Below are positions 1 to 64,000 of a stretch of DNA of 64,000 nucleotides, piece after piece. The notes beneath the pieces were generated by a model. That model was not told where the DNA came from. It worked only from the letters and a program-made list of their open reading frames with translations, and searched no databases. The stretch covers positions 32,001-96,000 of the forward strand of contig JAHQWL010000052.1 in the NCBI GenBank assembly GCA_029856155.1, given 5' to 3'. The position numbers were made by a program, and so were the translations under genes. The stretch comes from Promethearchaeia archaeon. Its GTDB lineage: Archaea > Asgardarchaeota > Lokiarchaeia > Sigyniarchaeales > SOKP01. Within the stretch, counting starts at the first letter, position 1. Each line of letters begins with the position of its first letter.

Positions 1-1200
1 TTTATTAGTTTGAAAGAGTTCATATATATCATTGAAATATTTGTCAGACATTCCCGCGATATAATCCCTCGCTATTAGAGTTAACTGTTTACTCTTTTTG
101 AGAGTTTTAAAATAAGTACTGTAATTATGATTATCTATATATTCAATGTGATCTTTAAAAATAGGAGAACTATAATTATCTGTCTCTAAATCTTTTAAAC
201 ATTTTTCAAAAATCAGTTCGAATTTTGCTTTTAACTTGTCTAAGAATGTTTTATCTGAAGAATTCTTCTTAAGTAAATCTCTTCTAACATAAATCATTTC
301 ATAATTAAATGCCTTTAATTCCTTTAAGGCTTCAAAGATTTCACTGCTATAGCCAATCTCATCGGTATCTAAGCTATAATTTAATAAATCAGTAATTAGG
401 GTGTTAATTATCTTAGGATTTGTATCCCCTAGAACTTTCTTACAATTTTCCGGAATATCTTCTCTCTTAATAAATTTCAATAGTATCGCATCTTCAATAT
501 CTCTACCAATATAGCTGATAGTATCAGCAAATCTAGTGACAATAGCTTCATACGACATCGGTATTCTCTTAATTTTATTCTCATTAAAACAATCTTCATA
601 TTCTCTAAAATGATCTTCCCACGTTTTTCCGTTTCTTTTGATTGGTCTCAAATTTTGTTCATTTACTTCTCCATCATGGCAAAGTATTCCATCAAGAACT
701 TGTAAGCTCAAATTAAGTCCTTTCGCCGGTTTCTCTGGAAATCTTCTTTCAAGGTAAGAAAGCCATCTTATCCCTTGACCATTATGACTAAAACTTCCCA
801 TATTATAATTACTGCTGATATTATTAAGTATTTCTTCACCTAAATGCCCAAATGGAGAATGACCAATATCGTGCCCTAAAGCAATTGCTTCAATTAGATC
901 CGTATTAAGTCTTAACACTCGCCCAATTTGGCGAGCCATTCTTGAAACTATATGAACATGAAGCGAACGATGAGTGATATTAGCATTATTTACATTGAAA
1001 AAAACCTGAGATTTATCAATATAGCGGGCATACGCTTTTGAATGAACAATACGATCTACATCTCTAAAAAAGGGAGGTCGTATATCTACACTTGTCTCTT
1101 TATAGAATCTAATTGATTCTGAATCAAATATACCGTGAATTCCGACATTAACATCTCTTTTCATCCGTGTTTGTAACAAATCTATCATTTTATTGTCCAT
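1..1200 (-). CDS. HD-domain dGTP triphosphohydrolase-like protein (3' end runs off the window; not in ORF track)
   Basis: Manual translation from ATG at 1200 gives ...FFRDVDRIVHSKAYARYIDKSQVF...THRSLH...IEAIALGHDIGHSPFGHLGE, the dGTPase-family motifs; frame is open to position 1. Confidence 0.85.
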   Translation of the reverse strand, partial: MDNKMIDLLQTRMKRDVNVGIHGIFDSESIRFYKETSVDIRPPFFRDVDRIVHSKAYARYIDKSQVFFNVNNANITHRSLHVHIVSRMARQIGRVLRLNTDLIEAIALGHDIGHSPFGHLGEEILNNISSNYNMGSFSHNGQGIRWLSYLERRFPEKPAKGLNLSLQVLDGILCHDGEVNEQNLRPIKRNGKTWEDHFREYEDCFNENKIKRIPMSYEAIVTRFADTISYIGRDIEDAILLKFIKREDIPENCKKVLGDTNPKIINTLITDLLNYSLDTDEIGYSSEIFEALKELKAFNYEMIYVRRDLLKKNSSDKTFLDKLKAKFELIFEKCLKDLETDNYSSPIFKDHIEYIDNHNYSTYFKTLKKSKQLTLIARDYIAGMSDKYFNDIYELFQTNK

Positions 1201-1360: not shown

Positions 1361-2302
1361 TCAACCAAATTTTATATCAATTGCAGAATAGGGGCATTTT
1401 TCTTTACATTTCAGGCAGTAATTGCATTCTCCTTTACCAGTAAAAAATTCAAATGGTTCATCTAATATTCTTATTTGTTTTGGGCATACCTTTTCGCATA
1501 TTCCACATTCAGTTCGTCCAACACATCTTACAGGGCTTCGAGATAACTTTAAAAACGAATATTCACTAATTGCAGAAGAGACTGCGGCAAATGGGCAAAT
1601 ATATCTACAATAAACTCGAGGATACCATATCGATGCAATTATAATGATCAAATAGAAGATTGAGATGAAAAAAACTAAAAGATTGGAAAAAATCGGCCCT
1701 AAACTACTAGTTTGAAAAATTTCACGAATCATATTTGGAAAGAAGACAAAAATATATTCCGCTAAAGAAAAATAAGAGAGGGGTTTATCTCCTAAATCAC
1801 CTAGATTCGCTCTATAATCAATATAAAATGATACACTTGTAGTTGCTGTAATTCCTAGAGGGATAAGTATAATAACTAAAAAAATCACTAATGCATACTT
1901 AATCTTCAATAATGATTTATGTGTGCTTGGTTTTATAGTCTTCTTTTTTGTTGGAATTGCAGCACAGGCATCTTGAATTGTCCCAATAGGGCATATCCAT
2001 CCGCAAAAAAATCTACTTGTCAATATTATTATTACAATTAAAATTCCTATTAGAAAAATTGGAATTATTCCTTCTGTTATAGAAAAGAAAATATATTCTA
2101 ACATTCCTGCACCATTTGAAAGCGGATTTCTGGGAGAATTCAAAATTGGAAGTACCTTTAGTAGCCCCTCTAATCCAATCAAATTAATAGAAAAGATTAA
2201 TTCCAAGATAACATAATTAATAAGGATAAATGCGAAAATCTGAACTATTCTTCTAAATATAGTTATCAAATGATTTCTTAACTTAAAGTTTTTTAAATCC
2301 AA
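1361..2302 (-). CDS. Membrane 4Fe-4S binding protein (NapH/MauN/YccM-like polyferredoxin)
   Basis: TM helices, RFFCGWICPIG and YCRYICP motifs, two C-terminal ferredoxin Cys clusters. Confidence 0.85.
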   Translation of the reverse strand: MDLKNFKLRNHLITIFRRIVQIFAFILINYVILELIFSINLIGLEGLLKVLPILNSPRNPLSNGAGMLEYIFFSITEGIIPIFLIGILIVIIILTSRFFCGWICPIGTIQDACAAIPTKKKTIKPSTHKSLLKIKYALVIFLVIILIPLGITATTSVSFYIDYRANLGDLGDKPLSYFSLAEYIFVFFPNMIREIFQTSSLGPIFSNLLVFFISIFYLIIIIASIWYPRVYCRYICPFAAVSSAISEYSFLKLSRSPVRCVGRTECGICEKVCPKQIRILDEPFEFFTGKGECNYCLKCKEKCPYSAIDIKFG

Positions 2303-2528
2303 AAAATACCACTGAGCACTCTTTTTCTTAAAAAGATTAATTAATACTGTTTAAAAAAATTAATTTTTCTCAGAAAAAACAAAAAAAAGAAATTGCAGTT
2401 CAGTGAAATATACTCATTAATTTGGATTTCATATATAATCCAATATTGGATATTATTTCTCGAAGAATAAAAGGGATTTTAGATATTTAAATCATATCTC
2501 CTAGTAAGTTTACTATTTTGTTGAACTA

Positions 2529-4439
2529 TTACTTAAGAAAGAGAGTTTCCAGATTTTTAGGACTTTTTGTTGACTTTCTAAGCTTTTTATGTATCATAGT
2601 TGAAAGACTTATACATTTACTTTCTTCTCCGTGATTCACTATAACTGTTTTTGGGCGTGGTTGGATTCTCCTCAAGAATTGGGAAATTTGGCTTCGGGAC
2701 GAATGACCCGAAAAACCTTCTAATGTGAATACCTTTAAATTCAATTTTACTAGCTGTGTTCTCCCTTTCGCATCTACATATTGGAATTCTCGGAATCCAC
2801 GTTGAACACGGGAACCCAATGTACCATAAACTTGATAAGATACGAAGATCAGCGAATTATTAGCATCATTTGCTAGAGATCGTAAATACTGAACAGAAGG
2901 ACCACCAATGAGCATACCACTAGTAGCTAATATAATGCAAGGTCCTCCTTTAATAATGTCTAATCTTTCTTCTTGAGCAGAAACGGTCTCGAAATAATCA
3001 CTTAAAAATGGATTCTTCCCTTGATGTAAGATCTTTTCTCTTAGATCACTACTCAAGAAATCGGGATTAGCAGTATGGATAGCAGTAGCTTCACTAATCA
3101 GTCCATCAATAAAAATAGGTACTTTATCGATAAAACCTTTTGAAATATATTCTTCTAAGACTATTAATAATTCTTGAGCTCTCCCAACTGCTAAAACGGG
3201 AATTAAAACTTTTCCTCCTCTTTTCAGAGTTGCATTTAAAATCTGTTTAAGTTCTCTTTCAGATTCTTGCCTACTAGGAATACGATCTTGTGGTCCTCCA
3301 TATGTAGATTCAATTAATAGACTTTCTACTCTTGGAAATTTAACAGCAGCTTTTTCTAATAGCCGGGTTTTTTGATATTTAAAATCGCCTGTATACACAA
3401 AATTATAATCTCCCTTTCCAAAGTGAAGGTGAACCATTGATGATCCTAAAATATGACCCGAATTATGAAGTGTTAACTTAATATCTGGTGCAATATCGGT
3501 TACCTTTCCCCAAGAAAGAGGAATTGTATGAAGTACAGTTGATTTGACATCTCTTTTTGAATATGGTGATGGGATTCCTTCTTTTTCGCAAATTTGAATA
3601 AAATCTAATTGTAGCATTGTTGATAGATTACGTGTGGGTAATGTGCAATAAACTGGACCACGGTATCCATATTTATATAGAAATGGTACAAGTCCACAAT
3701 GATCTAAATGTGCATGTGAAATTATTACAGCATCGAGATCTCTTACTGAAAATTCAGGTACGTCGAAGTATGGAAATTTATCATTTGGATTCCCTACATT
3801 TAATCCACAATCTAATAATACATTACTATCCCTAGTTTGTATTAATATACACGATCTTCCTACTTCCCTAAAACCACCTAAGGCATGCATCCTAATATTC
3901 AAATCTCTAAAGAGAGCAGGTCTGTGAATTCTTTTCCCAATTTCTAATAAAATATCTTTTTGAGTTTGGCGTTCTTTTGTAAGCATTCCCCTAATTAATT
4001 GTATAGTTCTTGAAGTTAATGGAGGAGTTCGTATAGTTTTAGGTTGCCAAAAGGTATTGGTTCTTATCTCCTTTAGATTAGCGCCTTTTTTGCCAATAAC
4101 AAGCCCTGGTTTCCCAGATTCTATTATTACTTCGCCTCTTGTATGATCAAATTCAATAGCGGAAATCTCAGCATCTTCATTAATTAAATTTCTAATGTAA
4201 GCCTCGGTTTCGGCGGGATCCTTACGTTTTTCTACATTCCATCGAAAAACAACACGTTTTCGCATGGTTTTTGCTAAATCTTTTAATACTGTTGAACTTT
4301 CAGTAGCTTCTACATCTGAATTTTCTGAATATACAGCAATTTCAGGACCTTCAAATTCAATCTTTTTGACATTAATATCTGGTGGTAGATTTTGGATAAT
4401 TTCCTCTTTAATTCGCTCCAATTCACTTTCAAAACTCAT
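2529..4439 (-). CDS. fttA: Archaeal beta-CASP ribonuclease aCPSF1 (transcription termination factor FttA) with N-terminal KH domains
   Basis: KH motif KPGLVIGKKG, LGGFREVGRS, SHAHLDH, GHILGS, FSGHS; 636 aa. Confidence 0.95.
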   Translation of the reverse strand: MSFESELERIKEEIIQNLPPDINVKKIEFEGPEIAVYSENSDVEATESSTVLKDLAKTMRKRVVFRWNVEKRKDPAETEAYIRNLINEDAEISAIEFDHTRGEVIIESGKPGLVIGKKGANLKEIRTNTFWQPKTIRTPPLTSRTIQLIRGMLTKERQTQKDILLEIGKRIHRPALFRDLNIRMHALGGFREVGRSCILIQTRDSNVLLDCGLNVGNPNDKFPYFDVPEFSVRDLDAVIISHAHLDHCGLVPFLYKYGYRGPVYCTLPTRNLSTMLQLDFIQICEKEGIPSPYSKRDVKSTVLHTIPLSWGKVTDIAPDIKLTLHNSGHILGSSMVHLHFGKGDYNFVYTGDFKYQKTRLLEKAAVKFPRVESLLIESTYGGPQDRIPSRQESERELKQILNATLKRGGKVLIPVLAVGRAQELLIVLEEYISKGFIDKVPIFIDGLISEATAIHTANPDFLSSDLREKILHQGKNPFLSDYFETVSAQEERLDIIKGGPCIILATSGMLIGGPSVQYLRSLANDANNSLIFVSYQVYGTLGSRVQRGFREFQYVDAKGRTQLVKLNLKVFTLEGFSGHSSRSQISQFLRRIQPRPKTVIVNHGEESKCISLSTMIHKKLRKSTKSPKNLETLFLK

Positions 4440-57588: not shown

Positions 57589-59991
57589 TCAAATTTCACG
57601 CATCATTAACCACTGGGAATATAATTGAGAGACTTGCATCATGAAATATGCATCGTTTATAGAGCCATTTTTTAATTGTGATATAAGAGTTACAAGTTCA
57701 TTTTTTTTACTCTCATGAAATTGCCGTAATCTATCAGATTCTACTATTTCTTCTAATAATCCCATATATGTGTCCCAATTTATAGTTGTAGGAAGAGTAG
57801 TAGTTACCTCAGCATCTTCTACTTTTTTTATCTTATATAAAGAATGATCCATGTGAAATTGCTTTACGTATTCATAAATCTGTTCACAAACTTTTAGAAA
57901 TTCTTGTGGATTATAGTCAATACCAGGGTCTTGTTTAAGACCTATAGATGTTATATCTATCCATGAAACATCTGTTCCTTTCATAGAAAAGATGGGTATT
58001 TCATATTTACGAGAAAGCTCTAATTCATGAGCACAATCGACTGAATTGAATACAGATTTATTAGTGCCTAAGAAGAATATAACATCACTAATAGGAACAT
58101 TTTTATCCATAAAATCATCAATATTTCCAGCTAAATCTTGCTCACAGAGAAGTACATCATATACTTCAGGTTTAGCTTCTAGATATTCACCTAGTGCAGC
58201 TAATTGGTAAGGTTCATAATCAATAACTGCATGAGAAATAAAAATAGCCATACTAGCTCTTTGTTTGAGATAATCTCGTAAGGTGTCTAAATCACGTTTA
58301 ACTATCAGTTTTTCTTCATCTGATAACGGATTTTCTTCAAACTCAAATGTTTCAAGAGTCTTAAGCGGCCAAAGAACATATGGCAGTGCATCAAATTTAT
58401 TCTTATTTAAATATAGATATTTAATCTTAGAATTTCCCAGACTTTTTGGTAAACTCTCAAGATTGTTTTCATTTAAATCTATGGATTCTAGTTTTTCGCA
58501 TCTTCCAATTGATTCTGGTAAAGAAGTAAAACTATTTTTACGTGCACTAATACTCATAAGTGAAGCCATCTTATCAAGACAATCAGGCAATGAAACTAAA
58601 ACATTTTCATCAACGTTTAAAGTAGTTAAGGAAATTAAATTACAAATAGCAGGAGGTAGACTTATTAATTGATTCTTACTTAAAATTAATTTCTCCAATT
58701 TTTTTAAATCTCCAATTTCGGTTGGTAATCTTTCAATTTCATTACCCTCTAAATGTAATTCTTTTAATTTCTCTAACTTTCCAATACTTGAAGGTAATGT
58801 TTTCATTTTTCCATTCGATACGACCAAATACAACATATCTTTCAATGAACCAATTGATTCAGGAAGTGCTGTTAAGGGAGTATTTCTAATATCAAGAGAA
58901 GATAGTTTCTCTAGATCACCAAAGTTTTCCGGTAAATTAGTTATTTTACAATCTTGAATGCTAAGACGCTCTAATCCCTTCATACGAGCAAAAGAATTTG
59001 GTAAACTGCCTATATTATTTCCACTTAAATCTAGTCCAAACACATTATCTAGATTACCTATTGATTCAGGCAAAGTTTCAATTTGATTGTTTCCCAAATC
59101 TATAGAATTCAAGTTTTGTAAATTACCAATTGATTCTGGAATTTGTTTAATTTGATTATTCTCAAAACGAAAGATTTTCAATGATGTTAAATTGCCAATG
59201 CTTTGTGGTAAGGCTTCAAGTTTATTATCTTTCACAAGAAGGGTTTGTAGAGTTGATAATTTGCCTATTGTATCAGGTAAAATACTCAAACCCATTGAAC
59301 TAATCTCCAACTTCTCAAGCGATATAAGTTCTCCAATAGAGTTTGGTAATTGAGAAATTCGAGTTACTCCTAGATCAAGAGATGTAAGCGATTTAAGTTG
59401 TCCAATATTAGGTGGTATCTCTTCAATGTTATTATGTCTGAGTGAGAAGGTTTTTAAAGAACTCAGATTATACATATTTTCTGGAATTTTAGTAAGTCTA
59501 TTATCACTTAAATCAAGGTCAGTTAATGCTCTACAAGCTTCGATTTCCACGGGTATTTCCCTTAATTTATTAGTACGAAGATCCAATTTTTCTAAATTTT
59601 TAAGATTGGAAATCCAGCTTGGCAGTTCTTTTATTTCATTTACACCCAAATCAAGTTGTTTCAAAGCGGTACAGTTAGCTAAGCTAGAAGGGAGCTCGTA
59701 AAGATTATTTTGTTGTGCCGAAAGCCACTCCAAATTTGTTAAATCCCCTATAGAATCTGGTATAGTTTCAATTTTATTACCATAAAAGAGGAGTGCATTC
59801 AATTTTTTACAATTTCCGATATTTTCTGGTAAGTTTGTGAGCGTCCCTCGAGTTACTTGAATCCGGGTAACATGGTTGTCTTCAACTCGAAAATTATCAG
59901 AATTCCAACTTGAGCCTACTTTTTGTTCCAAATCCTTAAGAACGTCTATCTCTTCTGTAGGAAGGATAAAACCCATATATTCTTTGCTCAT
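57589..59991 (-). CDS. LRR-TIR protein with intact TIR catalytic Glu
   Basis: 22 LRRs of ~23 aa, then IFISHA...SDVIFFLGTNKSVFNSVDCAHELELS...IPIF; C-terminal helical domain; no TM or signal peptide. Confidence 0.85.
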   Translation of the reverse strand: MSKEYMGFILPTEEIDVLKDLEQKVGSSWNSDNFRVEDNHVTRIQVTRGTLTNLPENIGNCKKLNALLFYGNKIETIPDSIGDLTNLEWLSAQQNNLYELPSSLANCTALKQLDLGVNEIKELPSWISNLKNLEKLDLRTNKLREIPVEIEACRALTDLDLSDNRLTKIPENMYNLSSLKTFSLRHNNIEEIPPNIGQLKSLTSLDLGVTRISQLPNSIGELISLEKLEISSMGLSILPDTIGKLSTLQTLLVKDNKLEALPQSIGNLTSLKIFRFENNQIKQIPESIGNLQNLNSIDLGNNQIETLPESIGNLDNVFGLDLSGNNIGSLPNSFARMKGLERLSIQDCKITNLPENFGDLEKLSSLDIRNTPLTALPESIGSLKDMLYLVVSNGKMKTLPSSIGKLEKLKELHLEGNEIERLPTEIGDLKKLEKLILSKNQLISLPPAICNLISLTTLNVDENVLVSLPDCLDKMASLMSISARKNSFTSLPESIGRCEKLESIDLNENNLESLPKSLGNSKIKYLYLNKNKFDALPYVLWPLKTLETFEFEENPLSDEEKLIVKRDLDTLRDYLKQRASMAIFISHAVIDYEPYQLAALGEYLEAKPEVYDVLLCEQDLAGNIDDFMDKNVPISDVIFFLGTNKSVFNSVDCAHELELSRKYEIPIFSMKGTDVSWIDITSIGLKQDPGIDYNPQEFLKVCEQIYEYVKQFHMDHSLYKIKKVEDAEVTTTLPTTINWDTYMGLLEEIVESDRLRQFHESKKNELVTLISQLKNGSINDAYFMMQVSQLYSQWLMMREI

Positions 59992-62372
59992 TGTTGTCCA
60001 CCTCCAAGATATTGTTGCATAACCTTCTTTTGTTGCATAAAACCCATGAAAAAGCCAGAAAGTTGAGAAAGAAATAATCCTTCTCCTCCGACCTTAGCGG
60101 ATTGTAGGCTATTATATATTCCAGTTAAAGATTCCTTGTTCTTTTCAAAAAATTCTTTCATCTCTGGCAAATGAATAATGCGATCAAGTTCAGCTTTAAA
60201 AGTTCCAAAACCAGTAGGATCACCTACTTCAGCAGCCGCTTCTTTTAGAAGAATGGAGGTTTTATCTTTAAAGATATTGTGTGAACGTTTTAATTGTTGG
60301 ATATAACTATATACATTCTCACAAAAACCATCGAAATCAGCTGGTGTAAATTCATGTCCTAACTCACGGCTAAGATCGGCACTGGATAGGTCGCCCCAAC
60401 TAACATCCAAACCCTTTAAAGGCACTACTTGAATACCCTGATTCTTAGCATTTTTTAAGATTTTAATCATTTCCGGGGAATTAATAGAGCCGGCTGTGGC
60501 AAGAAAAAGAACTAAATCAGTAGCATTAAGGTTAGATTCAATTGGAGGAAGAATAGCAAATATTTCACTTTTAGCTTCTAAAAATTCAGATAATTCTGAT
60601 ATACGATGAGCCTCTGCATCTACTTCAGTATGAATTAACATAACTGCTATACTTGCTCGCTGACGACAATATTCTAAAATAGCATTAGTATCTCTTTCGG
60701 CAATAGCTTGTTCTTCCTCTGAGAAAGGATTACCAGCAATGTCTAGATCCTTTAAAGATTCCATTATATATATAAAATATGGAATATGTTTGAGTTGATT
60801 CTCACCTATACTTAAGTCTCTTAAATTCAATTTAGTTATATGCTCAGGAATTTCGCTTAACTCGTTATCAGCAATCCAAAAAGTATCCAATGATTCTAAA
60901 TTTGAGATAGAATCAGGTAACGATGTTATTTTATTACCACGTAAAAAAAGTCTGGTTAATAATTTTAACTGGTCAATGCATTCAGGAATTGACCCTATAT
61001 TATTGTATGAAAGAACCAAATCATCTAATTTTTCCAATTTACAAAGGGAGGGAGGAATATTTGAAATTCTATTACTTCCAAGATCTAAATTAGTTAAATT
61101 AGTTAATTCTCCTATTGATTCTGGGATTTCGGTTATACGATTTGTGCTTAAATTAACTTTTTTAAGGGAAGTTAACTCTCCAAAATTAGCAGGAAGGGAT
61201 CTTAAACCATTACTTTCACATGTAAATTTTCTAAGTTTTTTCAAATTACAAAAGGACTGAGGAAGTTCCATGATTGCATTATATACTGCTTTATCGTCAT
61301 TGGTTGACCAAGATCCATTTAAATTTAACTCTTCCAACTCTATTAGATTACCAAAACTTTCGGGTAATGAATCAATTTTATTCCATTGAAGATCTAAGAA
61401 TCTTAATTTGGTTAAATTTCCTATTGTATCAGGTAAAAGATCCAATTCTTTCATTACTAAATTTAGCCCAATTACGTGTTTATTGTCACAAGCGAAACCA
61501 AAATGGCTTACATCGACTGGTTTCTCAGAGGTTTCTCGCTTATATTGTTCGATTCTGCCTTCTTGCGACTCTTGTGGAGCTTGTGTTTGATCTCCATACT
61601 GAGCGAGAATATTTTGAATATTTTGATGGACTGCTTGAGCATGTTGTTTAGCGGCCTGGATAGCTGATTCTTCAGTCATGCCCAATAAAGGTTTCAAACC
61701 TGCTAAAGTTGGATCAGCAACACCCAATTGTTCAATTCCAACATCAAAAGTTTTTTTCAATTGCTCTTGATATTCTGGAGTAATCATTGAATCATAATAT
61801 TTGATACTTTCCTTTTCCAATTCTTCAAGGGTTATTTGAGTAAACATTAAATCCTGAATTCTTTGAGTTTCTTGTTTATTTATTTTTTGAAGTTTAAAGT
61901 TTTCCTGCATAAACAATGCCATTGCTTTTCCTTTTTGTTGCGCTTTCTCCTCGTCCATCTCTAGCATGGATTTTATTTGCTGAACAGATGGATGGTTTTC
62001 TCCATACATAGGTATGAGCATATTAAGCTGTGTTTGAAGATTTGCTTTCATTGCTGGGTTGACTTGCGCCATATATTGACTTATATAGGTATTTTCCAAC
62101 TGTTCCAACGATAATTGTGCCAATTGTTCCTGTGTTGCTGCTTGAGCTTTAAATGCTTGAGCTTGCTGATTTAGAATGGTCTCGACAGACATTTGAGTTG
62201 AAGCAGGTTGGTATGCCATCATCTGCTGTGCATATTGCTCTTTACTTTCATCCCTATTTTCACGACAAGGGATTTTCTCTGCTATTAATTTCTCAATTTC
62301 CTCAAGGAATTCTGCTTCTGATGCTACTAAAAAAACACCATTATATTCTTTTAATTCTTCAATAATTATCAC
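59988..62372 (-). CDS. LRR protein with inserted Q/M-rich repeat domain and degenerate TIR-like domain; paralog of the downstream gene
   Basis: 10 LRRs, then VMLIH...TDLVLFLATAGSINSPEMIKIL...VVPLKGLDVSW; 4-nt ATGA overlap with the next gene. Confidence 0.8.
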   Translation of the reverse strand: MIIIEELKEYNGVFLVASEAEFLEEIEKLIAEKIPCRENRDESKEQYAQQMMAYQPASTQMSVETILNQQAQAFKAQAATQEQLAQLSLEQLENTYISQYMAQVNPAMKANLQTQLNMLIPMYGENHPSVQQIKSMLEMDEEKAQQKGKAMALFMQENFKLQKINKQETQRIQDLMFTQITLEELEKESIKYYDSMITPEYQEQLKKTFDVGIEQLGVADPTLAGLKPLLGMTEESAIQAAKQHAQAVHQNIQNILAQYGDQTQAPQESQEGRIEQYKRETSEKPVDVSHFGFACDNKHVIGLNLVMKELDLLPDTIGNLTKLRFLDLQWNKIDSLPESFGNLIELEELNLNGSWSTNDDKAVYNAIMELPQSFCNLKKLRKFTCESNGLRSLPANFGELTSLKKVNLSTNRITEIPESIGELTNLTNLDLGSNRISNIPPSLCKLEKLDDLVLSYNNIGSIPECIDQLKLLTRLFLRGNKITSLPDSISNLESLDTFWIADNELSEIPEHITKLNLRDLSIGENQLKHIPYFIYIMESLKDLDIAGNPFSEEEQAIAERDTNAILEYCRQRASIAVMLIHTEVDAEAHRISELSEFLEAKSEIFAILPPIESNLNATDLVLFLATAGSINSPEMIKILKNAKNQGIQVVPLKGLDVSWGDLSSADLSRELGHEFTPADFDGFCENVYSYIQQLKRSHNIFKDKTSILLKEAAAEVGDPTGFGTFKAELDRIIHLPEMKEFFEKNKESLTGIYNSLQSAKVGGEGLFLSQLSGFFMGFMQQKKVMQQYLGGGQQ

Positions 62373-62516
62373 CTAATAGGAATTATGATTAAAATTTTGA
62401 TTGTGTATATTGATATGTACAATTAATGAAGCTTAAGAATTTTTATATGTTTGCTTTCATATATTAACAAATCAAATGAAAATTATTTGAAATTAATCTA
62501 ATAAACAGTGACAAAG

Positions 62517-64000
62517 ATGGAAATAAACTCTTTCAAAAGAGGCAATTCTAGAAAATCTAACTATGAGCAGACATCTAGTGAAGCAAAAATATCTAAAAAA
62601 GTAATAGATTCCGTATTATCGCAACATACACTTGAAGTAAGGGATATCGAAATTAGTCCTGATGGTAAATTCTTAATATCTTGCTCTGAATGTGAAGAAA
62701 ACGAAAATCCATATATAATAGTTTGGAATGTTGATGAGCTTCTAGAAGGAGACACTAAACCTGAAATTATACTCCACGCAGAGAAAAAAGATATTCAAAA
62801 TACCAAAATTACTAATTGGTTATTATGTGTTGATTCTGCAGTTATAGAATTAGGAAACATTAAATGGTGGGTCATATGTGCTGGAAGCATAATTGGAGAT
62901 ATCTACATTTGGTGTTTCAGGCGTACCCTTGATTCAAGGAAATGGGATTTTGAGAATTATAAATCTATTATCTTGTCTGGAAGTAATGGAACCTTTGGAA
63001 ATTATCCAAATGCCATTTTTGATATTAAGATTCAAAATAATATAAATCAAAATAACTTACTTGATTTATACTATGTTTTAAATAATATCCATACTACTTG
63101 GAAAGAAAAAACTTATGATAACACACTTAATAAGTTGACAATATCGATCGATGAATTAGGAATGATTAGAACAGTAGATAAACCTAAAATTATTGGTACA
63201 AATGATGTGTGGATAACAAAAATAATGGTCAATAGAGATCTTAAAGATGAATTAATAATTACAGGCTCTAAAGAAGGAAAAGTTAATTTATGGAATCTTA
63301 GCGCTGGAACTGATTCAACATTAATAGGTGAACATGATGGATCAATTACGGATATAAGCATAATTAGAAATGGTAAAATGATTGCGTCTTCTTCTAATGA
63401 TACGAAAATAACTATTTGGGAAAAAGATAATCAAAACAAATATCATAAGAAAAAAGATCTTATAGGGCATACAGAAGCTGTTTTAACAATTGATATTCAG
63501 ACTGATGACAATTATTTACTTTCTGCAGGTAAAGACAATACTATTAAAATCTGGGATTTAAATGAATTAACTTGGATAAGAAGTATAGATATGCATTATT
63601 ATGTAGATAAATATGAAAAAAATTTAAAAACTACTGTAAAAGGAGTTCAGATAAAGGGACTAAATTTTATTAGAAATATTAAAATAACTCCTGATAATCG
63701 ATATGTATTTATATCAAAATATGACAAAATAATTATTCTACGTAATTTTGGCTCTGTATGGCATTTCATCCAACAGTTAAAATTTATTAAAAATTATGAT
63801 CCCGAGTTATATCGAAAAATTTATGGAGATAATTTAAGGCAAATTGCTAAATATAGTCCAGAAAATCTAGAGTCCCTCAATAAAATGTATAATATCATAA
63901 AAAACCGTTTAATAAAAAACAGGAAACTTGAATTAGCAGGCAAAACAGAACAAAAAATAGACTATAATATGCGTGAATTAAGCCCCCTTTTTATACCTTC
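62517..64000 (+). CDS. WD40-repeat beta-propeller protein (runs off the window; not in ORF track)
   Basis: ATG 62517; HTLEVRDIEISPDGKFLISCS, GEHDGSITDISI...IASSSNDTKITIWE, GHTEAVLTIDI...LSAGKDNTIKIWD. Confidence 0.85.
   Translation, partial: MEINSFKRGNSRKSNYEQTSSEAKISKKVIDSVLSQHTLEVRDIEISPDGKFLISCSECEENENPYIIVWNVDELLEGDTKPEIILHAEKKDIQNTKITNWLLCVDSAVIELGNIKWWVICAGSIIGDIYIWCFRRTLDSRKWDFENYKSIILSGSNGTFGNYPNAIFDIKIQNNINQNNLLDLYYVLNNIHTTWKEKTYDNTLNKLTISIDELGMIRTVDKPKIIGTNDVWITKIMVNRDLKDELIITGSKEGKVNLWNLSAGTDSTLIGEHDGSITDISIIRNGKMIASSSNDTKITIWEKDNQNKYHKKKDLIGHTEAVLTIDIQTDDNYLLSAGKDNTIKIWDLNELTWIRSIDMHYYVDKYEKNLKTTVKGVQIKGLNFIRNIKITPDNRYVFISKYDKIIILRNFGSVWHFIQQLKFIKNYDPELYRKIYGDNLRQIAKYSPENLESLNKMYNIIKNRLIKNRKLELAGKTEQKIDYNMRELSPLFIP

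What the first reader, a model, noticed from the sequence alone, without database searches (positions are those of the whole stretch)
61502..62264. A ~250-aa Q/M-rich domain with two 93-aa-period repeats inserted inside the LRR N-cap of the pseudo-TIR protein
Seen: the cap is contiguous in the active paralog (KEYMGFILPTEEIDVLKDLEQKVG...FRVEDNHVTRIQV) but split in the partner (KEYNGVFLVASEAEFLEEIEKLIA...[insert]...FACDNKHVIGLNL). The insert holds an ungapped duplication: SLEQLENTYISQYMAQVNPAMKANLQTQLNMLIPMYGENHPSVQQIKSMLEMDEEKAQQKGK (from aa 88) vs TLEELEKESIKYYDSMITPEYQEQLKKTFDVGIEQLGVADPTLAGLKPLLGMTEESAIQAAK (from aa 181). LRR2 of the same protein also carries an 11-aa loop-out (GSWSTNDDKAVYN). 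Inference: an integrated sensor/decoy or oligomerisation module, comparable to integrated domains in plant sensor NLRs. Met/Gln-rich amphipathic helices might bind hydrophobic peptides or membranes.
Basis: partly seen in the sequence, partly recalled or inferred. Interest (0 to 1): 0.72.

Follow-up and report, generated by a model that had tools for sequence, protein, structure and literature searches.

The report
Helical repeat domain splitting LRR cap
In a Loki-type Asgard archaeon, the non-catalytic member of a conserved pair of leucine-rich-repeat/TIR-like proteins carries a conserved 254-residue all-helical tandem-repeat domain with no detectable relatives, nested inside the cap of its repeat domain; it is real and under selection, but its function is unknown and it does not look like a plant-style decoy.

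Summary
The 794-aa protein P1 (59988-62372, minus strand) has its LRR N-cap split by residues 37-290. The flanking pieces together superpose on solved N-cap+LRR1-2 structures (Z 7.8-7.9, rmsd 2.1-2.5 Å). The downstream paralog P2 and all other paralogs examined have a contiguous cap.

The insert is predicted with confidence (pLDDT 88.6) as 11 helices. It holds two 93-aa-period units (hhalign E 1.7e-14, ungapped).

It is not variable. All 15 genomes (of 400 in the phylum) that carry a P1 ortholog carry the insert, and P1 always sits immediately upstream of P2. It has two units in most, and one unit in one genus. The duplication happened once and is old. The units are under strong purifying selection (dN/dS 0.11-0.14, below the LRR at 0.19).

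No other copy was found in the own genome, in 1.8 billion representative proteins, or in Pfam, PADLOC, PDB or BFVD. The only resemblance is a short kinesin-light-chain-type TPR-like 'GENHP' turn.

This argues against an integrated decoy. I read it as a fixed protein-interaction head on the sensor/regulatory subunit, but the mechanism is inferred. First readers of this scan noted the same insert in three other genomes.

The parts
62265..62372 (-). P1 residues 1-36: first half of the LRR N-cap (beta-hairpin 7-16, helix 17-30, strand starting at the conserved IPCxE motif)
   Evidence: AF2 model. Aligns to the contiguous caps of P2 and other paralogs. Superposes with residues 291-345 on solved N-cap+LRR structures.
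61503..62264 (-). The insert, residues 37-290: an all-alpha domain of 11 helices, rich in Q, M and A, acidic
   Evidence: Conserved in all P1 orthologs.
62118..62264 (-). Q-rich leader, residues 37-85 (helices 40-53 and 63-85, low-confidence hinge at 54-62). Less conserved than the repeats.
   Evidence: pLDDT and secondary structure. Identity to genus-level orthologs 45-63%. dN/dS 0.34.
61878..62117 (-). Repeat unit 1, residues 86-165 (four helices; contains the GENHP turn)
   Evidence: The repeat-1 units form one clade, support 98/95. dN/dS 0.14.
61839..61877 (-). Connector helix between the units, residues 166-178
61599..61838 (-). Repeat unit 2, residues 179-258 (four helices; invariant Y201, Q202, L205, G212, G217, P228)
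   Evidence: The repeat-2 units form one clade, support 100/99. dN/dS 0.11.
61503..61598 (-). Q-rich variable linker and trailing helix, residues 259-290 (pLDDT below 50 at 261-267)
61458..61502 (-). Second half of the N-cap and first LRR strand, residues 291-305 (FGFACDNKHVIGLNL)
61278..61316 (-). Loop-out GSWSTNDDKAVYN between LRR2 and LRR3, residues 353-365
   Evidence: 11-residue gap against P2's LRRs. Conserved in most orthologs.
60708..61502 (-). P1 LRR solenoid with C-cap, residues 291-555 (about 11 repeats)
   Evidence: Pfam LRR families. Length table.
60273..60707 (-). P1 TIR-like flavodoxin-fold domain, residues 556-700. It lacks the Glu that is invariant in P2 and has an 11-residue deletion after the second strand.
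   Evidence: AF2 model. The ten best VIA-align hits are all TIR domains, best Z 13.2. Alignment with P2.
59988..60272 (-). P1 C-terminal helical tail (residues 701-794) and stop codon; 4-base overlap with the start of P2
57589..59991 (-). P2, the partner paralog (800 aa): contiguous N-cap, about 22 LRRs, highly conserved TIR-like domain with invariant Glu656, helical tail

Best explanation
Shown:
- Residues 37-290 of P1 form an autonomous, well-predicted all-helical domain.
- It is nested in the loop between the first strand (IPCxE) and the second strand (FGF/YxC) of the LRR N-terminal cap.
- It consists of a Q-rich leader, two four-helix units that arose by one ancient tandem duplication, and a variable Q-rich linker.
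- It defines one subfamily, the non-catalytic upstream member of a conserved, translationally coupled LRR/TIR-like gene pair in a few genera of Loki-type Asgard archaea.
- It is kept under strong purifying selection.
- No relatives were detected elsewhere.

Inferred:
- It is a fixed protein-binding head, tethered by two flexible hinges to the N-terminal end of P1's short (about 11-repeat) LRR arc.
- It gives the non-catalytic subunit a second, conserved recognition or docking surface beside the LRR. The target would be a conserved trigger or a component of the P1/P2 complex.
- In this way it would couple binding to the activity of P2's intact TIR-like domain.
- It is not a swappable decoy.
For: - Split cap. 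The pre- and post-insert segments align to the contiguous caps of P2 and of about 20 other LRR/TIR-like paralogs. Together they superpose on the N-cap+LRR1-2 of FLS2, SERK2, PGIP and the C. tepidum Roco LRR (Z 7.0-7.9, rmsd 2.1-2.5 Å, 73-79 residues, model range about 15..345).
- Fold. AF2 mean pLDDT 88.6, 11 helices, low confidence only at 57-59 and 261-267.
- Repeat..
- One old duplication. The repeat-1 and repeat-2 units each form one clade across three genera in two families (98/95 and 100/99).
- Distribution. 15 of 400 genomes of the phylum, 10 of 53 other genomes of the own genus.
- Pairing. In all 14 fetched loci P1 with the insert lies directly upstream of P2 without it.
- Link to the P1 subfamily. 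Full-length P1-type C-termini occur only in the insert-bearing genomes.
- Selection. dN/dS is 0.14 and 0.11 for the units, 0.19 for the LRR, 0.08 for the TIR-like domain, and 0.27-0.34 for the hinges.
- Composition. The Q/M bias is kept in divergent orthologs.
- Context. The P1 C-terminal domain has a TIR-type fold (Z 13.2; the ten best hits are all TIR domains). It has Ile or Val where P2 has an invariant Glu.
Against: - No binding partner or ligand is known, and no contact map was available to show where the domain sits relative to the LRR.
- pTM of the N-terminal model is only 0.54, so the arrangement of the parts is uncertain.
- No known protein-binding fold was matched. Helical hits stay at Z 6.2 or below with high rmsd.
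- The immune or signalling role of the gene pair is itself only inferred from domain types.
- Expression rests on two short contigs in RNA libraries, which could be DNA carry-over.
Confidence: 0.45

Rival explanations
1. Homotypic assembly module. The helical repeats dimerise or oligomerise P1 and so nucleate the higher-order assemblies that TIR domains need.
For: The domain has long amphipathic, Q-rich helices. The generic structural neighbours are elongated antiparallel helical bundles such as spectrin, BAR and ClyA, at Z 4-5.4. From established knowledge, TIR enzymes act as oligomers.
Against: Self-association was not tested. The helical matches are non-specific, with rmsd of 9-20 Å. The conserved Gly-x-x-His/Asp-Pro turns and short helices fit a globular or solenoid fold better than a coiled coil.
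Confidence: 0.2
2. Autoinhibitory lid. The tethered domain folds back on the concave face of P1's own LRR and is displaced by the trigger.
For: It is attached at the N-terminal edge of the LRR sheet through two low-confidence hinges. The nearby LRR2-3 loop-out is conserved in most two-unit orthologs. Island or loop insertions that fold onto LRR surfaces are known from BRI1 and TLR8/9 (established knowledge).
Against: No contact prediction was available. The loop-out is absent in P0026, P0031 and P0033, which keep the domain. LRR number varies from 11 to 18 with the same domain.
Confidence: 0.15
3. Integrated decoy or sensor domain of the plant NLR-ID type. It would be a copy of a host protein targeted by viruses, fused into the sensor of a receptor pair.
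For: It sits in the non-catalytic member of a strictly conserved head-to-tail pair. The pair is patchily distributed within the genus, 10 of 53 other genomes, like an accessory gene.
Against: - No other copy exists in the own genome at E up to 10.
- No free-standing or other-context homolog was found in 1.8 billion representatives, in a profile search of 400 genomes, or in the 5.8-billion-protein set.
- Every ortholog carries the same domain, with no alternative domains at the site.
- The units are under strong purifying selection.
- There is no NB-ARC domain.
Confidence: 0.07
4. Origin rather than function: a strongly diverged array of kinesin-light-chain-type TPR hairpins (TPR_10/12), as used by STAND/NLR-like sensors, captured into the cap loop. 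Each 93-aa unit would equal two hairpins.
For: - The 'L..l...lGENHPsV..lk..L' helix-turn-helix of unit 1 matches 42-aa TPR units of two STAND-type proteins (hhalign probability 88%, E 3e-6, 31 columns).
- It also matches KLC1/2 in the PDB (summed E 1.7e-4).
- KLC TPR domains top the Foldseek list (E 0.08).
Against: - Each single stretch is insignificant (i-E above 200).
- Unit 2 does not match.
- No Pfam TPR model hits the insert or any of the 18 units.
- The period is 93 aa, not 34 or 42.
- The model does not superpose on TPR domains (TM 0.12-0.15, rmsd about 20 Å), and they are not among the VIA rows at Z 4 or above.
Confidence: 0.2
5. A neutral low-complexity expansion with no function of its own.
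For: The composition is biased (Q 16%). The leader and linker are poorly conserved.
Against: The two units are 70-79% identical across the genus, more than the LRR. Their dN/dS is 0.11-0.14. They have been kept as separate clades since before the split of two families. The model is confident.
Confidence: 0.03

Closest known systems
Island domains of plant LRR receptor kinases (BRI1, PSKR1, RPK2)
   Same: A non-LRR segment is nested inside an LRR domain without breaking the solenoid. In those receptors it adds a recognition surface next to the repeats.
   Different: Those islands are about 36-70 residues, lie between internal repeats, and are extracellular. This one is 254 residues, all-helical, duplicated, lies inside the N-terminal cap, and is cytoplasmic. 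Docking on the LRR is not shown here.
Integrated domains of plant paired NLRs (RRS1-WRKY with RPS4; RGA5 or Pik-1 HMA)
   Same: An extra domain is carried by the signalling-incompetent member of a genetically linked receptor pair. The TIR-like domain of P1 superposes best on the RPS4/RRS1 TIR heterodimer entry (Z 13.2).
   Different: There is no NB-ARC. The domain is invariant across orthologs, has no free-standing homolog, and is under strong purifying selection. It sits in the LRR cap rather than at a terminus or between CC and NB-ARC.
Kinesin-light-chain-type TPR repeats (Pfam TPR_10/TPR_12) of STAND sensors
   Same: A local helix / Gly-x-x-His-Pro / helix turn with the same spacing of hydrophobic residues in unit 1.
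   Different: The period is 93 aa rather than 42. No Pfam TPR hit. Unit 2 lacks the motif. The predicted fold does not superpose on TPR solenoids.
Other LRR/TIR-like proteins of the same archaeal order (for example the 559-aa paralog at G000:C31, locus L072)
   Same: The same cap, LRR, C-cap and TIR-like layout. The TIR-like domain is 30-43% identical to P1's.
   Different: All have a contiguous cap, with at most about 20 residues between the cap helix and the strand. None has the helical units or the P1-type tail.

Membership tests
LRR N-terminal cap interrupted by a nested domain | Segments before and after the insert are homologous to the two halves of a contiguous cap in paralogs | tested here: met
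   Alignment with P2, with 14 P2 orthologs and with about 20 other paralogs.
LRR N-terminal cap interrupted by a nested domain | The two segments together adopt the cap+LRR1-2 structure | tested here: met
   VIA-align gives Z 7.0-7.9, rmsd 2.1-2.5 Å over 73-79 residues, with model range about 15..345 against contiguous target ranges of about 95 residues (FLS2, SERK2, PGIP, C. tepidum Roco). Z is middling, but the rmsd is low and the hits are consistent.
TPR (kinesin-light-chain type, Pfam TPR_10/TPR_12) | Match to a Pfam TPR model | tested here: not met
   No TPR family at E up to 10 for the insert, or at E up to 1 for any of the 18 units.
TPR (kinesin-light-chain type, Pfam TPR_10/TPR_12) | Tandem helix-hairpin units of 34 or 42 residues | tested here: not met
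   The period is 93 residues with four helices per unit.
TPR (kinesin-light-chain type, Pfam TPR_10/TPR_12) | Fold superposes on a TPR solenoid | tested here: inconclusive
   Foldseek ranks KLC TPR domains first, but at E 0.08, TM 0.12-0.15 and rmsd about 20 Å. The inter-unit geometry of the model is uncertain (pTM 0.54).
TPR (kinesin-light-chain type, Pfam TPR_10/TPR_12) | Conserved turn motif between helix B and the next helix A (G-x-x-H-P) | tested here: met
   Met for unit 1 only: hhalign probability 88%, E 3e-6, 31 columns; PDB profile search.
Integrated decoy domain of paired immune receptors (plant NLR-ID) | The domain also exists as, or derives from, an independent host protein | tested here: not met
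   Not found with these queries in the own genome, in 1.8 billion representatives, in 400 genomes with a profile, or in the 5.8-billion-protein set restricted to longer proteins.
Integrated decoy domain of paired immune receptors (plant NLR-ID) | Presence or identity of the domain varies among orthologous or paralogous receptors | tested here: not met
   All P1 orthologs carry the same unit, once or twice. Paralogs have nothing at the site.
Integrated decoy domain of paired immune receptors (plant NLR-ID) | Carried by one member of a genetically linked pair | tested here: met
   P1 and P2 are adjacent or overlapping in 14 of 14 loci.
Integrated decoy domain of paired immune receptors (plant NLR-ID) | NLR architecture (NB-ARC or NACHT) | tested here: not met
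   Pfam finds only LRR families in both proteins.
TIR domain (C-terminal domain of P1; context only) | TIR-type flavodoxin-like fold | tested here: met
   The ten best VIA-align hits are all TIR domains (RPS4/RRS1 Z 13.2, rmsd 2.6 Å, 124 residues; ThsB Z 11.1). Other flavodoxin-like folds follow at Z 11 or below, so the margin is small. Foldseek is weak.
TIR domain (C-terminal domain of P1; context only) | Sequence match to a TIR family model | tested here: not met
   No Pfam hit at E up to 10, no PADLOC hit, and no PDB sequence hit for P2's domain.
TIR domain (C-terminal domain of P1; context only) | Catalytic glutamate in the helix after the third strand | tested here: not met
   P2 has an invariant Glu656 in NSVDCAHELELS. 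The aligned P1 position is Ile, or Val/Ile in orthologs. The equivalence to the catalytic Glu of known TIRs rests on motif resemblance and was not checked by structural alignment here.
LRR island domain (BRI1 type) | The insert folds onto the LRR surface and forms a ligand pocket | not testable with these tools

The most novel reading that the evidence does not exclude
The nested helical domain is the trigger-recognition head of an Asgard archaeal sensor/executor TIR pair. That would be an independently evolved functional analogue of the extra sensor domains of plant paired immune receptors. [quoted passage not shown]
Probability: 0.15. Interest if true: 0.8.

Novelty: new variant of a known kind. 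Interest (0 to 1): 0.45.

Why it matters
LRR/TIR proteins are core parts of eukaryotic and bacterial immunity, and Asgard archaea are the nearest known relatives of eukaryotes. This gene pair has one conserved TIR-like domain and one degenerate one. A dedicated, conserved extra domain sits on the degenerate partner. That gives a concrete, testable model of how division of labour between a sensor and an executor can arise outside plants.

The domain is a new family with no detectable relatives, and its position inside an LRR cap is unusual. Its practical value is as a handle: delete it, or pull down with it, to find what the system senses. Without a function it remains an annotated curiosity restricted to four genera.

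Tried and rejected
- **Complex prediction** of the insert (aa 37-290, alignment A1) with the P2 LRR (aa 1-560, alignment A4) gave 'no answer', score 0.00. This is neither support nor evidence against binding.
- **The protein-atlas search** on the insert gave no usable hit and holds no model.
The context of the metagenomic homologs, such as the 907-aa P0031, could therefore not be read. I used the genome search and the fetch from genomes instead.
- **Sequence libraries.** Pfam on the insert and on the units, PADLOC and PDB sequence searches gave nothing beyond the weak KLC TPR motif.
- **Structure libraries.** Foldseek against the PDB and against viral BFVD gave no match at E 0.001 or better. 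VIA-align hits to the insert are only generic long-helix bundles at Z 6.2 or below. The insert was not folded on its own, so 'no known fold' holds only within these limits.
- **Insert as degenerate former LRRs.** I considered this because 254 aa is about 11 x 23 and P1 and P2 have nearly equal lengths. I rejected it for four reasons. The post-insert cap strand is homologous to P2's. The composition is not LRR-like (L 8%, N 4%, against 17% and 10% in the LRR). LRR number varies independently. P0031 has both a two-unit insert and about 18 LRRs.
- **Membrane-binding amphipathic helices.** Rejected on charge and hydropathy.
- **Transcription.** Only a 151-nt contig (62061-62211, identical) and a 198-nt contig (60043-60240, one mismatch) were found in two metatranscriptome libraries. 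That is too little to claim expression.
- **Contig joint.** One metagenome contig joins 59146 to 61413 with only 24 nt on one side. I take it as an assembly artefact between LRR repeats.
- **Literature.** Two searches, with term look-ups in two Asgard defence papers (PMC11291487, PMC13700489), found no description of this pair or domain.
Full report
**What is there.** The end of the window carries two overlapping genes on the minus strand. P1 is 59988-62372 (794 aa). P2 is 57589-59991 (800 aa). They share a 4-base overlap. Pfam sees only LRR families in both. The two proteins are paralogs that align from the LRRs to the C-terminus at 28% identity. Names that sources give to homologs place the genome among Loki-type Asgard archaea (Lokiarchaeota/Promethearchaeota).

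**Check of the observation.** All quoted sequences are present at the stated places. Residue 37 starts at 62264 and residue 290 ends at 61503, so the given start is one base off.
- The ungapped pair aa 88-149 / 181-242 has 19 of 62 identities.
- The best local alignment of the two halves of the insert scores 92, against 37 +/- 6.8 in 1000 shuffles, none reaching it.
- With ortholog profiles, the units match at hhalign probability 98.3%, E 1.7e-14, over 74 ungapped columns.
- Eighteen units from nine genomes align over 80 columns without a gap. Glu5, Pro21 and Pro43 are invariant, and Gly39 is nearly so.
- The 11-residue loop-out after LRR2 is real. It is conserved in most orthologs but not all.

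**Anatomy.** An AlphaFold2 model of residues 1-345, built with 23 aligned sequences, has mean pLDDT 88.6 and pTM 0.54.
- Residues 7-39 form a beta-hairpin, a helix and a strand.
- Residues 40-283 form eleven helices.
- Residues 292-304 form two strands that lead into the LRRs.
- Confidence drops only at 57-59 and 261-267. The two conserved units (helices 89-164 and 182-260) therefore hang between two hinges.

An all-against-all structural search put the N-cap plus first repeats of plant LRR ectodomains (FLS2, SERK2, PGIP) and of the C. tepidum Roco protein on top. These hits have Z 7.0-7.9 and rmsd 2.1-2.5 Å over 73-79 residues. The model range runs from about residue 15 to 345, against contiguous stretches of about 95 residues in the targets. 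The two cap halves therefore do form one cap around the insert.

The insert itself found only generic long-helix bundles (Z 6.2 or below, high rmsd). It found nothing in Foldseek against the PDB or the viral BFVD library at E 0.001 or better.

**Distribution and evolution.**
- A word-indexed search with residues 30-295 found 25 proteins, nearly all 774-794 aa with the same layout, at 39-68% identity over the insert.
- An exhaustive phmmer run over 1.8 billion representatives found only ten proteins. Six are longer relatives of the same family, including P0031 (907 aa, two units, about 18 LRRs) and P0033 (757 aa, one unit, about 15 LRRs). Two are truncated fragments. Two are STAND-type proteins whose 42-aa TPR units share a 'YGENHPSV' turn.
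- In 400 genomes of the phylum the insert occurs in 15 genomes of four genera. Within the own genus it occurs in 10 of 53 other genomes, and many near-complete genomes lack it.
- A profile of the unit adds only three marginal hits.
- A profile search of the 5.8-billion-protein set returns only the same family.
- The own genome has no second copy.
- In all 14 loci fetched, P1 with the insert lies directly upstream of a P2 ortholog whose cap is contiguous. The divergent WD40 neighbour is kept only within the genus.
- Searching the order with P1's C-terminal 239 residues gave full-length matches (46-100% identity) only in the insert-bearing genomes. The TIR-like part alone (30-43% identity) occurs in 64 of 154 genomes, in many LRR/TIR-like proteins of 400-1430 aa. 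All of those whose N-termini I could read have contiguous caps.
- In a tree of the units, the repeat-1 units form one clade (98/95) and the repeat-2 units another (100/99), across two families. The duplication therefore happened once and is old. The single units of one genus branch apart from both.
- Across ten genus-level orthologs, dN/dS is 0.14 and 0.11 for the two units, 0.19 for the LRR, 0.08 for the TIR-like domain, and 0.27-0.34 for the leader and linker. dS is near 1, so these values are rough.
- Q and M enrichment persists in divergent orthologs (Q 10-19%, M 3.5-9%). The domain is acidic and hydrophilic, without hydrophobic segments.

**Context.** A model of P1 residues 556-794 (pLDDT 83.6) has a five-stranded alpha/beta domain followed by a helical tail. 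Its ten best structural neighbours are all TIR domains (RPS4/RRS1 Z 13.2, SARM1, MyD88, ThsB). Other flavodoxin-like folds follow closely. No sequence model of TIR matches. P2 keeps an invariant NSVDCAHELELS motif. P1 has Ile or Val at the Glu position and lacks 11 residues after the second strand. I did not verify the catalytic equivalence structurally.

**What it is not.**
- An integrated decoy of the plant NLR-ID kind would be expected to have a source protein elsewhere, to vary between receptors and often to evolve fast. None of these holds here.
- A TPR array is not supported as membership. There is no Pfam hit, the period is 93 aa, unit 2 lacks the motif, and the model does not superpose on TPR solenoids. 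The local GENHP turn recurs in three independent searches, so a remote TPR-like origin cannot be excluded.
- Membrane binding is unlikely on charge and hydropathy.
- A neutral low-complexity expansion is contradicted by the conservation of the units.

**Most likely mechanism (inferred).** The domain is a fixed interaction head on the non-catalytic subunit. It is flexibly tethered at the N-terminal edge of a short LRR arc. It would provide a conserved second surface for a conserved trigger or for assembly with P2. I give this 0.45. Rivals are self-assembly (0.2), an autoinhibitory lid (0.15) and a decoy (0.07).

**Limits and novelty.** Two metatranscriptome libraries hold short identical or near-identical contigs of P1. 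One of them lies inside the insert. This is too little to claim expression. The two Asgard defence papers I checked by term look-up do not mention such a pair or domain. First readers of this scan noted the same insert in three other genomes.

**Verdict.** This is a real, conserved, new domain family in an unusual position. It is a new variant of known kinds (nested LRR domains and paired TIR receptors), of moderate interest, and its function is open.

Noticed in passing
L057-L079 (for example L072 = G000:C31:36000-41500, a 559-aa ORF at 2179-3858): The TIR-like domain of P1 belongs to a large expansion in this archaeal order. It occurs in 64 of 154 genomes, often several copies per genome. 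It is fused to LRR arrays of very different length, to 1300-1430-aa proteins with extra N-terminal regions, and in one case (L075) to beta-propeller-like repeats. Pfam and PADLOC do not recognise the domain.
   Followed up: partly
window 57589-58308 (C-terminal part of P2): P2's TIR-like domain is exceptionally conserved, with long runs of invariant residues across four genera (FISHAV.DYEPY, EVYDVLLCEQDL.GNID.FMD.NVPISD, FNS.DC.HE). It is much more conserved than its LRRs, as expected of an enzyme core.
   Followed up: partly
L027:3211-4623 (minus strand): In the most distant genome that carries the pair (G139), a third, shorter P2-like gene (470 aa: LRRs plus a P2-type C-terminus) lies divergently upstream of P1.
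   Followed up: no
window 62508-64000 and loci L016-L025: The divergently transcribed WD40 gene and the two genes after it are syntenic with the pair in all genus-level loci. They are absent next to the pair in the three other genera, so they are probably not obligatory partners.
   Followed up: partly
window 62061-62211 and 60043-60240: Short contigs in a salt-marsh and a sediment metatranscriptome library match P1 (0 and 1 mismatch). DNA runs holding the gene come from marine sediment, salt marsh, freshwater sediment and 'soil' metagenomes of 13 studies.
   Followed up: partly
window 59146 / 61413: One contig of a marine-sediment metagenome joins these two places, skipping 2266 bases from P2's LRR to P1's LRR, with only 24 bases on one side. 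It is probably an assembly chimera between LRR repeats, but it could be a recombinant single-gene form.
   Followed up: no
window 61500-62000: G+C rises to 0.36, against about 0.30 around it, and AT skew falls to -0.27 over the insert. This reflects its Gln/Ala/Met codon usage rather than foreign origin, since the orthologs share it.
   Followed up: no
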